Positions 5,904 through 53,572 of a DNA stretch of 64,000 bases are shown in pieces. Below the pieces are notes generated by a model, which was given only the letters and a program-made list of their open reading frames with translations, searched no databases and was not told the DNA's origin. The position numbers were made by a program, and so were the translations under genes. Positions within the stretch are counted from its first letter, which is position 1. Every line of letters starts with the position of its first letter. This DNA comes from an uncultured Methanosarcinales archaeon (GTDB lineage: Archaea; Nanobdellota; Nanobdellia; Woesearchaeales; GW2011-AR9), in assembly GCA_964344235.1 (NCBI GenBank), contig CAYFMJ010000001.1, positions 224,001 to 288,000 on the forward strand, written 5' to 3'.

Positions 5904-6002
5904 AAAGCTTTTTAAAAGAGTGTTGTTCTGATATAGTGTCTCGATAGAGATAGACAATGAGGCGACTCGGTCAAGTAATGTTTACTTCTGAGATTGCTTT
6001 GT

Positions 6003-6126
6003 CTAAAAATCCTATTGCGCGTACTGGGACACCACACTTCGTATGGCAACCCAGATACGCTTCATCTGGCCATGCCATGATTACCTTCGGTAACCAATGG
6101 CAATCATGGCACAGACGGATTTTTAG
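6003..6126 (-). ncRNA. Candidate three-way-junction RNA, copy 1
   Basis: P1 CTAAAAATCC/GGATTTTTAG closes two long arms; shares CCGTCTGTGYCAT...GYCATT...ATGGCATGRCCAG with the copy at 42404-42531; G-U pairs mostly favour the minus strand. Confidence 0.6.
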
Positions 6127-6150
6127 TTAACAGATGTGAGGATAATAAAA

Positions 6151-6426
6151 ATGCCACGAGGAATGTTTAAATCAGGACGATTACGGAAAATCTTTGTACG
6201 GACGCCTGGAGCAAAAACTGTTGTTCATTACAGACAGCGGAAGCCCAGTAAAGCAGTGTGTGCAAATTGTAAGAAACAGCTAGCAGGAGTTCCACGAGAA
6301 CTTCCCGCAAAGATGCGGAACATGCCCAAAACGGCTAAACGGCCAGAACGACCGTTTGGTGGAGTTTTGTGTTCAGTATGTATGAGAAATAGAATGAAAC
6401 AACAGGCACGAGGTGGGGCACAATGA
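6151..6426 (+). CDS. rpl34e: 50S ribosomal protein L34e
   Basis: VRTPG, KPSKAVCANC, RPERPFGGVLCSVC; ATG 6151. Confidence 0.95.
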   Translation: MPRGMFKSGRLRKIFVRTPGAKTVVHYRQRKPSKAVCANCKKQLAGVPRELPAKMRNMPKTAKRPERPFGGVLCSVCMRNRMKQQARGGAQ

Positions 6427-41143: not shown

Positions 41144-41542
41144 ATGAATCGTCTAGAGAAAGTGTATCTGTTTTGTGGCTCTTTGTTTCTCCCTTTTCTT
41201 TTTTATCGAATTTATGTTTTTCTTAACGGCGGTAAGGTTTCGTTCTTACGTGGTTTGACTGGACTGAAGGTTCACCATTATCATTACGGAGTTTTTCTCA
41301 TTACTGTTGTAGTATTGCTGTTGTTGTTCTATAAATTGTCTAAAATAATAGTTGTGCTGGCTGGTTTAGGCATAGGGACGATGCTTGATAGTTTTATTTC
41401 TTCTTTATTTAGGAGCTCGTCACGTGCCGGAGAAATTGTTAATTATAATACCGCACTTATTCCAACTTTGCTATTATTGCTGGGAGTTACGTTGCTGGCT
41501 GTTGCGCTTTCTAGAAATAGTTCTAATCAAACCCACGAATAG
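41144..41542 (+). CDS. Small hypothetical membrane protein
   Basis: Four hydrophobic segments, HHYHYG motif. Confidence 0.55.
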   Translation: MNRLEKVYLFCGSLFLPFLFYRIYVFLNGGKVSFLRGLTGLKVHHYHYGVFLITVVVLLLLFYKLSKIIVVLAGLGIGTMLDSFISSLFRSSSRAGEIVNYNTALIPTLLLLLGVTLLAVALSRNSSNQTHE

Positions 41543-42329
41543 GGGATTTGTATTTTACGTACCCACCAGCTGCTAACGATAATCCATCACGGGCAGCAAT
41601 GGTTTGTACGCCAGTGAGTCTCTGAATTTCTCTTGCTTGTTGTAATGGGTCTGCTTTTAACATTTCTAAGCCAAAATGGGTGATGATCGCAACCCTCGGT
41701 CGAACTTTGGAAACAATCTTGATTGCTGATTCTGTGTCGAGGTTAAGACCCTTACCCTCTTTACCGGGAAATGGTACGTTCATGATGAGGATGTCAGTTC
41801 CAGTAAGACTTTCCATTAGCTCATCTGTAAGAATTGTGTCTCCCGTATAGGCAAGTGTAAATTTAGGGCAGAATAATTTGAATCCAACTGCGTGTGGATC
41901 TGTGTGTTTTACAGGGAGTGCGTTGATTTGAACTAACTCAATCCCAATTTTGTGGTTCTGTTCTATGGGAATAATTCGTTCTGGTAATTTTTGATGATGC
42001 TTTGTTAAGATTGGGTTATTTTCTTCAGATGCTTGTAAGACAGACTTGCTCGCTAAAACAATACCCCTCTGTTCGATGCCGCCGTGAGTCATCGCATCCA
42101 CAACAGCGTTGAGGTCATTACAATGGTTGATGTGGTTATGTGATACTAGGACTGCAGTTGTATGGTGGAGATTGACTCCATATTCTTTCGCTTTCACCAA
42201 CGCACCCGGGCCGGGATCGAGATGGAACTGGAGGTCTTCTACTTGTACGATTATGCCGCCTGATGCACAGAGTTGCCTACTGACAACTGCGGGTGAGCCG
42301 GCAGTGCCTAAGAAAATAATACGAGACAT
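41523..42329 (-). CDS. Metallo-beta-lactamase-fold hydrolase
   Basis: FLGTAG, LDPGPG, SHNHINH, HTD, YTGDT, ITHF. Confidence 0.88.
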   Translation of the reverse strand: MSRIIFLGTAGSPAVVSRQLCASGGIIVQVEDLQFHLDPGPGALVKAKEYGVNLHHTTAVLVSHNHINHCNDLNAVVDAMTHGGIEQRGIVLASKSVLQASEENNPILTKHHQKLPERIIPIEQNHKIGIELVQINALPVKHTDPHAVGFKLFCPKFTLAYTGDTILTDELMESLTGTDILIMNVPFPGKEGKGLNLDTESAIKIVSKVRPRVAIITHFGLEMLKADPLQQAREIQRLTGVQTIAARDGLSLAAGGYVKYKSPIRGFD

Positions 42330-42403: not shown

Positions 42404-42531
42404 GTGGGAAGACCCTACTCCGGAGACAAGAACCCCCTCACTCTGTAAGAGGAACCTTGTATCCTCCGCCTGGTCATGCCATCATTGTCTTTGACAATAA
42501 TGACATTGATGACACAGACGGGTCTTTCCAC
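42404..42531 (-). ncRNA. Candidate three-way-junction RNA, copy 2 (outer stem may extend to 42377-42540)
   Basis: 12-bp P1 GTGGGAAGACCC/GGGTCTTTCCAC; arms equivalent to 6003-6126 with compensatory changes. Confidence 0.6.
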
Positions 42532-42592: not shown

Positions 42593-44215
42593 ATGTCAAA
42601 TAATGTGCAACCGATTTTTATCATGCCGGAAGATACACAACGAACTACTGGAAAAGACGCGCAGCGCAACAATATAGCGGCAGCGAAAGCAGTAGCACAA
42701 GCTGTTCGGACAACTCTTGGACCAAAGGGAATGGATAAAATGATTGTTGATGCCGCTGGAGAAGTTGTAGTCACGAATGATGGGGTAACGATATTGCAGG
42801 AGATGCAGATTGAACATCCTGCTGCGAAGATGATTGTTGAAGTTGCGAAGACACAAGAAAATGCTGTGGGAGATGGTACCACAACGGCAGTTGTGCTGGC
42901 TGGGGAATTATTGAAGAAAGCTGAGGATTTATTGGATCAGGAGATTCATCCAACCGTTCTTGCGAAAGGTTATCGGTTGGCGGAAGTGGAAGCGCAGAAA
43001 GTGTTGCAGCAGATTGCCCGTGCAGTGAACCCGCAGCAACATGATGTGTTGAAGAATATTGCAATCACCGCCATGACTGGGAAAGGAGCAGAAGCAAATA
43101 AAGAGCAATTAGCTGAGTTGGTTGTGCAATCGGTTACAGACGTTGCAGATTCTTCTAATGAGTCTGTTACGGTGGATTTAGATAATATTAAGATTGAAAC
43201 GAAAGCAGGAGAGGCTGTTGATACTAGTACTTTGATTCGAGGGGTTGTGTTGGATAAAGAACGAGTGCATCCAACAATGCCAACGCAGGTGGAAAATGCA
43301 GCAGTGTTATTGTTGAATGCCCCTCTCGAAATTAAAAATACAGAGATCGATGCAAAGATTCAAATCACTGATCCGACACAATTACAAGCATTTCTTGACC
43401 AGGAAGAGAGAACGTTGCGAGAGATGGTTGAGAAAGTGAAAAGTGTTGGAGCGCGTGTTGTGTTATGTCAGAAAGGAATTGATGAGTTAGCGCAGCATTT
43501 CTTGGCGAAAGTGGGAATTCTGGCGGTGAGAAGAGTGCGCAAGAGTGATTTAGAAAAACTTGCAAAAGCAACTGGTGGGTCTATAGTGAATAATCTACGG
43601 GAATTGCAGTCAACAGACTTAGGGAGAGCGGGTTTAGTACGAGAGATAAAAGTTGGTGATGAAGAGATGATCTTCGTTGAACAATGTCCAAATCCAAAAG
43701 CCGTTACACTATTACTCCGAGGAGGAACAGAGCATGTTGCTGAGGAGATTAAGCGAGCCGTCACAGATGCGTTGGGGGATGTTGCAGCGGCTTTGAGAGA
43801 GGGAAAAGTTGTTGCAGGAGCAGGTTCTGTAGAGATGGAAATTGCAAAGGGGCTGCGGAATTATGCAAGACAGTTACAAGGGAGAGAACAATTGGCAGTG
43901 CAAGCATTTGCAGAAGCGATGGAAGTTATTCCAAGAACATTAGCAGAGAATGCTGGTTTAGATCCGATTGACGTGTTAACTTCATTACGATCAGTACACG
44001 ATCAGGGCCAAACGTGGTCAGGAATTAATGTGTTTACGGGGAATGTTATGGATGCGTGGCAGGAAGGAGTTTTGGAACCGTTGAAGATTAAGACACAAGC
44101 GCTTTCTTCAGCTGCTGAAGTGGCTGAAATGATTTTGAGAATTGATGATGTGATTCTTGGTGCGAGTAATGCAGCACCTCCTCGCATGCCACCGCAGGTG
44201 CAAGGGTTGATGTGA
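42593..44215 (+). CDS. Thermosome subunit (group II chaperonin)
   Basis: [44 protein letters not shown]. Confidence 0.97.
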
Positions 44216-52688: not shown

Positions 52689-52773
52689 CTTCTCTTTTTG
52701 GGTTGTTGTTCTCTTAAACAGAATTAAAGAAATAACCATAATCTTTATAAATAGATGCGGGGGTGAATGTGAT

Positions 52774-52882
52774 GGACGGCCAGAGGGATGGAAATCACCT
52801 AGACTCGTTTCGAACCTAGAAGTTAAGGCCATTTCCGTGTTGGAGTGTACTGCATTTTGTGGGAAATCCGACAAGCTGTCCC
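52774..52882 (+). rRNA. rrf: 5S rRNA (stand-alone)
   Basis: Helix I GGACGGC/GCTGTCC; ACTCGTTTCGAAC, AGAAGTTAAG, GTACTG, GGGAAA hallmarks; TTTATAAATA at 52744-52753. Confidence 0.88.
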
Positions 52883-53572
52883 CTTATTTTTTAGTGAGAT
52901 GCTTGCTAATTTCTTCTTTAGTTCTCTGAACTGGTCTTCATTTCGCGCTGTTGCGGCATAACTTTCAATAATTAAGTTAGTAACTCTCTTTTTTCTTGGG
53001 TGTTTAAATCCAATTTTCTCCCTAAAAGCAATGAAATTCTCCTTTCCAGTTATAGATAATAGAAAGCTCTGGTCCCTTTTGCTTGATCTATGGTTTCTTA
53101 TTATTTTGTTTGACCTTATCCCCAAATTGAGTAGAACCTGCTTGACTTGAGATAGGATTTTATAGGAATTGGAGGAAAGAGTAATGTTCCTTTTCCATTC
53201 GTTAGTTTTTCTATTTAGTCTTAGGGCGGCACATCCCTCATCATCATAAAAAGTACGAAGAAACTCTCTTAACATTCTGTCCGATTCTAAGAACGCTTTA
53301 GGGATACTGATGTTGTGGCTGTTGTAACTTTGTAGATACTTTTTCAAGTGATTGACTATATGCTTGCCGTATACTGCCACATATGGTGTTCCACTGTTCA
53401 TTTTGCCTCCGGACATTCCAGGATTACCAAATTGATTTTTTATATCCAACTTAAACTCTTCAATCAGTGTAGGGCAAGTGTTGAAATACATGATTTGTCG
53501 GTCTGATAAATGGCCATCCCCGCAAATTCTCGCGACAATTCTTACTAGTTGCATCTCTTTCATCCGTAACAT
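52823..53572 (-). CDS. LAGLIDADG-family protein (intein/DOD-like type), free-standing
   Basis: IVARICGDG and FLRTFYDDEG, IPKAF, LLNLGI; no intein splicing motifs seen. Confidence 0.82.
   Translation of the reverse strand: MLRMKEMQLVRIVARICGDGHLSDRQIMYFNTCPTLIEEFKLDIKNQFGNPGMSGGKMNSGTPYVAVYGKHIVNHLKKYLQSYNSHNISIPKAFLESDRMLREFLRTFYDDEGCAALRLNRKTNEWKRNITLSSNSYKILSQVKQVLLNLGIRSNKIIRNHRSSKRDQSFLLSITGKENFIAFREKIGFKHPRKKRVTNLIIESYAATARNEDQFRELKKKLASISLKNKGTACRISHKMQYTPTRKWP

What the first reader, a model, noticed from the sequence alone, without database searches (positions are those of the whole stretch)
6003..6126. Repeated covarying three-way-junction RNA motif (copy 1, antisense within the ribosomal cluster)
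Seen: this element and 42404-42531 share CCGTCTGTGYCAT-N4-GYCATT-hairpin-ATGGCATGRCCAG on the minus strand. Both have a 4-nt bulge in arm 2, a TT/GT internal loop in arm 3 and 3-nt apical loops (GAA, GAA; AAA, AGA). P1, the arm-2 tip and arm 3 have different sequences that still pair. I could not match it to SRP, RNase P, 5S, tRNA, C/D, H/ACA or a known ribozyme core. A TTTTTATTAT tract at about 6153-6144 could be its minus-strand TATA. Inference: an undescribed ncRNA family (or ssDNA structure).
Basis: partly seen in the sequence, partly recalled or inferred. Interest (0 to 1): 0.75.

Follow-up and report, generated by a model that had tools for sequence, protein, structure and literature searches.

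The report
Folded miniature transposon relics, not RNA genes
The two Y-shaped elements are real, but they are old copies of a small gene-less jumping DNA element (a MITE) that is scattered through tiny Woesearchaeota-type archaea; its unusual feature is that its three-armed fold is kept better than its ends.

Summary
Window 6003-6126 and 42404-42531 (minus strand) share the stated motif and fold into the same three-way junction, and no Rfam family matches. They are not a two-copy RNA gene family. A covariance model finds 7 copies in this 1.19-Mb genome and copies in 29 of 151 sampled genomes of the same order, with 21 or more in some genomes. Young copies in relatives have unrelated flanks, tips 5'-GGC...GCC-3' and exact 9-bp target-site duplications. 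That is the signature of IS5-family/IS903-group transposition. Two sister genera have an empty site upstream of L34e. P1 is therefore the terminal inverted repeat, and its "covariation" is expected for such a repeat. The window copies are old relics with no tips and no duplication. Three things remain unexplained. The P2 tip and P3 truly covary, with G-U favoured 6:1 on one strand, and decayed copies keep the fold. Permuted, P3-less and nested forms exist. The loops are mostly C-GNA-G triloops, typical of stable DNA hairpins. No partner transposase was proven. Other agents of this scan reached the same MITE/IS903 reading for sibling repeats in this genome. Interest is moderate.

The parts
6003..6126 (-). 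Copy 1, type A element, from the P1 5' strand to the P1 3' strand. The covariance-model hit spans 5995-6131.
   Evidence: G000:C1:229995-230131, 144.9 bits with R1
6117..6126 (-). Copy 1, P1 5' strand (CUAAAAAUCC). This is the remnant of the left terminal inverted repeat; the GGC tip is lost.
6064..6116 (-). Copy 1, P2. It has the conserved base GUCUG/CAGAU, a U bulge, a 4-nt bulge, tandem TGCCAT boxes and a C-GAA-G triloop.
6019..6060 (-). Copy 1, P3, with the conserved GU/UU internal loop, a U-G wobble and a C-GAA-G triloop.
6013..6018 (-). Copy 1, junction strand J3/1 (GCAAUA). The family consensus is GRAGUA.
6003..6012 (-). Copy 1, P1 3' strand (GGAUUUUUAG).
42404..42531 (-). Copy 2, type A element. 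P1 is 42520-42531 paired with 42404-42415, P2 is 42468-42519, P3 is 42422-42467 and J3/1 is 42416-42421.
   Evidence: G000:C1:266398-266536, 154.1 bits
5145..5903 (+). EMC3/YidC-like membrane protein gene, the left neighbour of copy 1.
6151..6426 (+). Ribosomal protein L34e gene. Copy 1 ends 25 nt upstream of its ATG (P1 end 6126; model hit end 6131). Sister genera have this intergenic region without the element.
41523..42329 (-). Metallo-beta-lactamase-fold gene, downstream neighbour of copy 2.
42593..44215 (+). Thermosome gene. The palindromic TATA-like TCTTTAAAAGA about 30 nt upstream of its ATG lies just outside copy 2.

Best explanation
Both elements are old, immobilised copies of a family of about 135-bp non-autonomous DNA transposons (MITEs) of one order of DPANN (Woesearchaeota-type) archaea. 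Shown: active copies end in 5'-GGC...GCC-3', carry terminal inverted repeats of 17-40 bp (which are P1) and duplicate exactly 9 bp of target. They sit at different loci in different genomes, and copy 1 is an insertion relative to sister genera. Inferred: they are moved in trans by an IS5-family DDE transposase of the IS903 kind, which cuts at the GGC tips and joins them to a 9-bp staggered cut. Matched changes in P1 and in the base of P2 reflect the two ends co-evolving with their transposase. They do not indicate an RNA helix. Also inferred, and less certain: the body (the P2 tip, the P3 arm with its GUU/GUU loop, and the GRAGUA junction strand) is kept as a fold of one particular strand. I think this is most likely single-stranded DNA folding back, so that one strand carries both ends side by side. 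The alternative is the 3'-untranslated hairpins of the parent transposase mRNA, inherited by the MITE. The window copies have lost their tips and duplications and cannot move. Whether the host now uses them is unknown.
For: Copy number and spread. There are 7 copies in G000. Relatives have up to 13, and some genomes of the order have 21 or more. Twenty-nine of 151 genomes of the order have a match, and in the phylum sample all matches were in this order. Transposon hallmarks. Near-identical 136-nt units sit in unrelated flanks. The census gave 9/9 duplications in 8 copies and 8/9 in 2, all with GGC/GCC tips. The G014 composite has further 8-10-bp duplications, and more were seen. An empty site lies upstream of L34e in G002 and G010 (A3). 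No flanking genes are shared between genomes. Nearly all copies are intergenic. IS903 signature. IS5/IS903-group elements give 9-bp repeats (PMC3281130, Table 2), and IS903B has ends GGCTTTGTTG... with a 9-bp repeat (PMC10569121). The only DDE_Tnp_1 gene of G000 ends ...CAGACGTAGGGTTATCATTTGTGCAAAGCC. That is tip GGCTTTGCA, then about 20 nt, then CGTCTGTGC plus a hairpin, laid out like the element's end. Homologues share this right end. Fold. 94.6% of cells pair and 34 of 44 pairs change on both sides. Controls with the partner slid by 1-3 columns give 30-47% pairing. G-U pairs on the sense strand number 66, against 11 A-C. Loops. 35 of 48 are triloops, 32 are C-NNA-G, 20 are C-GNA-G, and none is GNRA or UNCG. 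C-GNA-G is the very stable DNA mini-hairpin motif (PMC3201870, PMC13037366). DNA energy parameters give the same Y shape.
Against: No full-length insertion sequence carrying these tips and core at both ends was found. G015 has 13 copies and no PF01609 or PF01610 hit. The candidate transposase genes have no clear left inverted repeat. Beyond GGC, the tips differ between subfamilies while the core is conserved, which is the reverse of a classical MITE. The window copies and all other G000 copies show no duplication above chance, so their mobile origin rests on family membership and on the empty site. Whether the fold acts as DNA or as RNA is not settled: G-U bias and triloops are compatible with both.
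Confidence: 0.8

Rival explanations
1. The Y-fold is a functional RNA, either a structured non-coding RNA or a self-cleaving ribozyme. It uses the transposon only as a vehicle, or the host has adopted it. On this reading the window copies are expressed RNA genes.
For: The P2 tip and P3 covary strongly, and the unpaired nucleotides are conserved: the GRAGUA junction strand, the G-N-A junction strand and the GU/UU loop. G-U exceeds A-C 6:1 on one strand, and in G000 this runs against the local GC skew. Circularly permuted forms exist, as in small ribozymes. Old G000 copies keep 39-44 of 44 pairs although their tips and duplications are gone. All 7 G000 copies have the same orientation relative to GC skew.
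Against: No internal promoter or terminator is conserved. There are no GNRA or UNCG loops, and triloops dominate. P3 is dispensable: P3-less copies are multicopy in G105, and in G014 and G041 a whole nested element replaces P3. Young copies show no orientation bias relative to genes or skew. No known ribozyme or RNA family matches. In one permuted lineage the P1 cap reads GCC-9 nt-GGC. That points to a DNA head-to-tail junction as the origin of the permuted forms.
Confidence: 0.15
2. The fold has no function of its own. It is the automatic consequence of joining two inverted transposon ends that each carry transposase-binding repeats. The apparent covariation comes from comparing subfamilies descended from different parent insertion sequences.
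For: P1 and the P2 base are inverted repeats, as in any MITE. P2 holds tandem TGYCAT boxes on both strands, as sub-terminal transposase-binding sites do. The right end of the candidate insertion sequence already carries a hairpin next to CAGACG-TAGG.
Against: Repeats that bind protein in duplex DNA should not prefer G-T over A-C mismatches (66 against 11). They should not conserve a non-complementary GTT/GTT loop or C-GNA-G loops. P3 is a local hairpin inside one end, not a pairing of left end with right end, and it has changes on both sides in 14 of 16 pairs.
Confidence: 0.15
3. The elements are folded recombination sites (attC-like or dif-like) of the Xer-linked cassette arrays that other agents of this scan reported in this and related genomes.
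For: They are Y-shaped hairpins with extrahelical bases, which resembles attC logic. An array was reported about 89 kb beyond the window end (earlier notes e1-5776566 and e1-2591282).
Against: That array region contains neither the core motifs nor any model hit. The only hit nearby is an ordinary dispersed copy about 2 kb upstream of the array. The flanking direct repeats differ from copy to copy, so they are duplicated target and not a shared crossover core. Copies are solitary and lie between housekeeping genes.
Confidence: 0.02

Closest known systems
MITEs derived from IS5-family, IS903-group insertion sequences (for example MITEAba12 of Acinetobacter, mobilised by ISAba12; PMC6382973)
   Same: Size of about 110-140 bp, non-coding, terminal inverted repeats, exact 9-bp target-site duplications, many dispersed intergenic copies, and older copies without a recognisable duplication. 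The tips begin GGC, as in IS903 (GGCTTTGTTG; PMC10569121).
   Different: MITEAba12 is conserved in its inverted repeats and folds only weakly (about -24 to -27 kcal/mol; PMC6382973). Here the repeats vary beyond GGC, while an internal three-armed fold is conserved and covaries. Permuted, P3-less and nested forms exist. No partner insertion sequence with matching ends was found. The host is archaeal.
bcr1 repeat of the Bacillus cereus group (about 155 bp; reviewed in PMC3184786)
   Same: A small mobile intergenic repeat flanked by short direct repeats. Its cruciform-like fold with two independent stem-loops is maintained by compensatory base changes.
   Different: bcr1 has 5-bp direct repeats and is known to be transcribed. 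I did not test for sequence relatedness and expect none. It is bacterial. For the present family transcription is unknown, and the duplication and tip signature points to a different transposase type.
Inverted terminal repeats of parvoviruses such as AAV (T- or Y-shaped single-stranded DNA hairpins; from my own knowledge, not tested)
   Same: About 125-145 nt of one DNA strand folds into a three-way junction with two small arms capped by 3-nt loops, and with tandem short protein-binding repeats in a stem.
   Different: Those are replication origins nicked by an HUH endonuclease at the ends of a linear single-stranded genome. Here the elements are chromosomal insertions with target duplications. 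This is an analogy of shape only.

Membership tests
Prokaryotic MITE | Short (under about 300-500 bp), no coding capacity | tested here: met
   Units are 124-145 nt with no conserved ORF. Copies lie between annotated-type genes.
Prokaryotic MITE | Terminal inverted repeats | tested here: met
   P1 is an inverted repeat of 10-40 bp in every type A copy. Young copies have tips GGC...GCC. The window copies keep P1 but have lost the tips.
Prokaryotic MITE | Target-site duplication of fixed length | tested here: met
   9/9 matches in 8 copies and 8/9 in 2 (G015, G044), and 8-10 bp in the G014 composite. This is not met for the two window copies or any other G000 copy, where the best matches do not exceed shuffled flanks.
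Prokaryotic MITE | Multicopy and dispersed, with presence/absence differences between related genomes | tested here: met
   7 copies in G000. 29 of 151 genomes of the order have a match. No flanks are shared between genomes. Empty site in G002 and G010.
Prokaryotic MITE | A cognate autonomous insertion sequence with the same ends | tested here: inconclusive
   All pairs of tips in G014 and G015 lie 130-340 nt apart. The IS5-family genes found share a GGCTTTGCA right end, but no left repeat was found.
IS5 family, IS903 group (as source of the transposase) | 9-bp direct repeats and ends beginning GGC | tested here: met
   compared with PMC3281130 (all IS5/IS903 entries have 9-bp direct repeats) and PMC10569121 (IS903B end GGCTTTGTTG, 9-bp direct repeat).
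IS5 family, IS903 group (as source of the transposase) | Co-resident DDE_Tnp_1 transposase in genomes with active copies | tested here: inconclusive
   PF01609 hits occur in G000, G014, G043 and G044, but not in G015, G041 or G042. These are draft assemblies, in which insertion sequences often fail to assemble.
Any Rfam family, including the self-cleaving ribozymes, 5S, SRP, RNase P and tRNA | A match to the family covariance model | tested here: not met
   The only gathering-level hit in the window is 5S rRNA at 52772-52884. On 17 family members the permissive scans gave only scattered microRNA-type noise. ARAGORN found nothing.
Integron attC or Xer/dif cassette sites | Located at cassette boundaries in arrays beside a tyrosine recombinase, with a shared crossover core | tested here: not met
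   The core is absent from the reported array. The flanking repeats differ in sequence from copy to copy. Copies are solitary.
REP/RAYT or IS200/IS605-type palindromic elements | Hairpin ends, no terminal inverted repeats and no target duplication, moved by HUH enzymes | tested here: not met
   Fixed 9-bp duplications and inverted tips are present. I did not search for RAYT or TnpA genes.

The most novel reading that the evidence does not exclude
The three-armed fold is a functional single-stranded module under its own selection, either RNA or fold-back DNA. It might recruit the transposase, or it might be a new catalytic or regulatory RNA. On this reading it rides on the transposon, survives circular permutation and outlives the transposon's ends. 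All seven decayed copies in this genome keep it, and all seven have the same orientation relative to GC skew.
Probability: 0.3. Interest if true: 0.65.

Novelty: new variant of a known kind. Interest (0 to 1): 0.38.

Why it matters
The result removes a false lead: this is not a new two-copy RNA gene in a ribosomal-protein cluster. It also gives a covariance model and clear hallmarks (GGC tips and a 9-bp duplication) for annotating a repeat family found in about a fifth of sampled genomes of this archaeal order. Such repeats break assemblies and mimic structured RNAs in covariation screens. One question stays open: why does a DNA transposon conserve its internal fold, with a preferred strand, more strictly than its ends? 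If that fold works as single-stranded DNA or RNA in transposition, it would be an unusual mode of end recognition for a DDE transposon, and it could be tested with a small set of synthetic substrates.

Tried and rejected
1. Known RNA families. Rfam at gathering and permissive thresholds, on the window and on 17 family members, gave nothing consistent. ARAGORN gave nothing.

2. Hammerhead, hairpin-ribozyme and loop-E readings of the junction, checked by eye. The order and length of the junction strands do not fit a hammerhead. The GUCUG/CAGRY pairing covaries, so it is a helix and not a catalytic core. The middle base of the G-N-A strand varies, so the junction is not a canonical AGUA/GAA loop E.

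3. Xer/attC cassette site. This lead came from earlier scan notes. The array region lacks the core.

4. ISL3 parentage. The tips resemble GGCTCTT, but PF01610 is absent from five genomes.

5. The insertion sequence in G014 contig C50 has ends CAGGTGAC..., which are unrelated.

6. Search for a full-length parent. I looked at pairs of tips in G014 and G015, transposase loci in G043 and G044, homologues of the G000 transposase in relatives and metagenome contigs, and partial model hits. The partial hits proved to be elements with extra hairpins in P2 or P3. No element with both ends was found.

7. My genome-collection pattern scan was too loose and mostly hit GC-rich bacteria by chance. Only 10 model-confirmed copies, on 8 of the 88 loci re-scored, came out of it. 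The eight viral-contig pattern hits were all false.

8. Conserved gene neighbourhood of the permuted form. The flanks are unrelated housekeeping genes.

9. Orientation bias relative to neighbouring genes. 12 antisense against 6 sense, which is not significant.

Full report
**1. The observation**

Read on the minus strand, window 6003-6126 and 42404-42531 share CCGTCTGTGYCAT-N4-GYCATT...ATGGCATGRCCAG. This exact pattern occurs only at these two places in the 1.19-Mb genome. Each element folds into the same Y shape:
- a closing stem P1;
- a long arm P2 with a single U bulge and a 4-nt bulge;
- an arm P3 with a 2x2 GU/UU internal loop;
- 3-nt apical loops.

The energies are -63.1 and -69.1 kcal/mol, with z-scores of -8.5 and -8.0. 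Ten of 44 pairs differ on both sides between the two copies and still pair. Rfam gives nothing on either strand. Both elements are intergenic. Copy 1 lies between an EMC3/YidC-like gene and L34e. Copy 2 lies between a metallo-beta-lactamase-fold gene and the thermosome gene.

The proposed TATA box is not one. The T-rich tract is the complement of the A-rich spacer between a GAGGA ribosome-binding site and the L34e ATG at 6151. A relative that lacks the element (G010) has a similar A-rich spacer before its ATG.

**2. It is a large dispersed family**

A covariance model built from the two copies (R1) finds 7 copies in this genome. It also finds 13, 7, 2, 1, 1 and 1 copies in six of 40 relatives. 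A better model built from 24 diverse copies (R2) finds the family in 29 of 151 sampled genomes of the order. That is 25 of the 116 genomes of good quality. In a sample of the phylum, all matches were in this order.

Three caveats apply to these numbers.
- One of the 29 genomes (G172) and one source of two rows of alignment A4 (G045, locus L083) are flagged as unpublished. The tally, A4 and model R2 rest partly on them.
- MAGs labelled "Methanosarcinales" that carry the element are probably mislabelled.
- No viral contig carries the element.

**3. It is a transposon**

In G015 the copies are near-identical 136-nt units in unrelated flanks. A census that required GGC/GCC tips and matching inverted ends gave perfect 9-bp direct repeats of flanking DNA in 8 copies and 8 of 9 matches in 2 more. 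The repeat sequence differs at every site (TTCACCACC, TTAAAGAGG, CTAACTTCA, GTAGGTTAG, TAACATCCT, AGTAGGATA, CAATCTTCA, TACACAATT and others). Copies with mutated tips, and the G014 composites, add further cases.

The region upstream of L34e in two sister genera aligns with this genome on both sides. It lacks about 135 nt exactly where copy 1 sits. Copies in different genomes share no flanking genes.

P1 is therefore the terminal inverted repeat of a MITE. Matched changes in P1, and in the GUCUG/CAGRY base of P2, are what co-evolving transposon ends look like.

A 9-bp duplication with ends beginning GGC is the signature of the IS903 group of the IS5 family (PMC3281130, Table 2; PMC10569121, where IS903B has ends GGCTTTGTTG... 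and a 9-bp repeat). MITEAba12 is a bacterial precedent of the same kind (PMC6382973).

**4. The partner transposase is not proven**

- ISL3-type transposases are absent from five genomes.
- G000 has a single DDE_Tnp_1 gene, at contig C2:51104-52162. It ends ...GTGCAGAAATCTATGCTGCACAGACGTAGGGTTATCATTTGTGCAAAGCC.
- Read from the tip inward, this is GGCTTTGCA, about 20 nt, CGTCTGTGC and then a hairpin. That layout matches the element's end. In the forward direction it reads hairpin, CAGACG, TAGG, inverted repeat, GCC.
- More than 6,000 homologues exist, several named IS5-family transposase of Woesearchaeota, Nanoarchaeota or "archaeon". Those I fetched share the GGCTTTGCA right end, but none has a convincing left repeat.
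- G015, which has the most active copies, has no such gene in its draft assembly.

The enzyme assignment therefore rests on the signature of the ends and the duplication. I put it at about 0.6.

**5. What is not ordinary**

(a) The fold covaries strongly. On 24 diverse copies, 94.6% of cells pair and 34 of 44 pairs have changes on both sides. Shifting the 3' partners by 1-3 columns drops pairing to 30-47%. P3 is a local hairpin inside one end of the element, and 14 of its 16 pairs change on both sides. The alignment was fitted to the model, which favours the structure somewhat.

(b) One strand is favoured. Non-Watson-Crick cells are G-U on the sense strand 66 times and A-C 11 times. The U-G wobble and the non-complementary GUU/GUU loop of P3 are conserved. 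In G000 this runs against the local compositional skew.

(c) Beyond GGC the tips differ between subfamilies (GGCTCTGTAG, GGCGCTGTCC, GGCACAATTC, GGCTTCATCC, GGCTAATATG), whereas the core is conserved.

(d) Several variants exist:
- P3-less copies (3 in G105).
- Copies with extra hairpins in P2 or P3.
- Nested composites in G014 and G041. In these, an outer element in the opposite orientation has its P3 replaced by a whole inner element, and it is the composite that is multicopy.
- A circularly permuted form, type B. Here P1 is a short capped hairpin and P2 is the open closing stem. It occurs in at least ten genomes, with four copies in G122. Type B sits between unrelated housekeeping genes. 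In one lineage (G043) its P1 cap reads ...GCC, 9 nt, GGC... This is what two abutted element ends separated by one duplication length would look like. Type B therefore probably arose from a head-to-tail DNA junction, either a tandem copy or an excised circle. This is inference, but it weakens the ribozyme-like reading of the permutation.

(e) The seven G000 copies, and those of G002 and G010, have no tips and no duplication above chance. Even so, they keep 37-44 of 42-44 scorable pairs. All seven G000 copies have their sense strand on the C-rich strand. Contig C1 has a monotonic GC skew.

**6. DNA or RNA?**

Of 48 apical loops, 35 are triloops. Thirty-two are C-NNA-G, 20 are C-GNA-G, and none is GNRA or UNCG. 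d(C-GNA-G) is the classic very stable DNA mini-hairpin, and its stability depends on that closing pair (PMC3201870, PMC13037366). With DNA parameters the same Y shape is predicted. No promoter or terminator is conserved inside the element. Young copies show no orientation bias relative to genes or skew.

I therefore lean towards a fold of one DNA strand, or towards hairpins inherited from the 3' end of the parent transposase transcript, whose coding strand is the sense strand. I cannot exclude an RNA role.

**7. Comparison with known elements and verdict**

The family meets the tested defining features of a MITE, except that no partner insertion sequence was demonstrated. It carries the IS903-type signature. 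Its fold conservation resembles bcr1 of Bacillus cereus, a mobile repeat whose cruciform-like structure is kept by compensatory changes (PMC3184786). It is not an Rfam family, not a known ribozyme and not a cassette recombination site.

A large survey reports a high MITE density in a Woesearchaea genome (PMC11602168). I found no description of this family, or of its permuted and nested forms, in the papers I could search.

Other agents of this scan independently read sibling structured repeats in this same genome as IS903-type MITEs whose folded middle is better kept than their ends (e1-5776488, e1-5776595, e1-761382). My result agrees with theirs. It adds the census, the order-wide distribution, the empty site, the strand and loop statistics, and the permuted, P3-less and nested architectures.

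The finding is real but is a new variant of a known kind. Interest is moderate.

Noticed in passing
G000 contig C2:51104-52186 (outside the window; locus L186:1057-2139); also L239-L244, L235, L255, L256: A very large family of IS5-type DDE_Tnp_1 genes (more than 6,000 homologues) has a sharply conserved right end, ...GTGCAAAGCC, just after the stop codon. I could not find a matching left inverted repeat. They may be one-ended, decayed or domesticated transposases.
   Followed up: partly
window about 5935-5975 (+): A non-coding motif GATAGA..TTGAGGCRACTCGG upstream of L34e is conserved between this genome and two sister genera that lack the element. It may be a promoter, a leader or a small structured signal of the L34e-L14e unit.
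   Followed up: no
G000 contig C1, whole 412 kb: GC skew is strongly and monotonically positive (about +0.2) along the entire contig, so the contig seems to lie in one replichore. All four family copies on it are on the minus strand.
   Followed up: partly
G000 contig C10:11122-11276 (locus L009): One family copy has a P2 tip nearly identical to that of window copy 1, but it has two extra hairpins in P2 and a reduced P3. This suggests exchange of modules between copies.
   Followed up: no
L031 and L032 (G015 C43:16540 and C31:3607): Two copies are interrupted inside P3 by the same unrelated insert of about 250 nt. The remaining 3' end of the element lies downstream. This is a nested insertion that was itself copied.
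   Followed up: no
L022, L026, L028 (G014): Three of the seven composite elements carry an extra 54-nt hairpin-forming insert in the outer element's P2, at the single-base bulge.
   Followed up: no
They may contain introns that the default search misses.
   Followed up: no
L191 (G042 C13:9264-9399): One family copy lies inside a 797-codon open frame on the opposite strand, unlike the otherwise intergenic copies.
   Followed up: no
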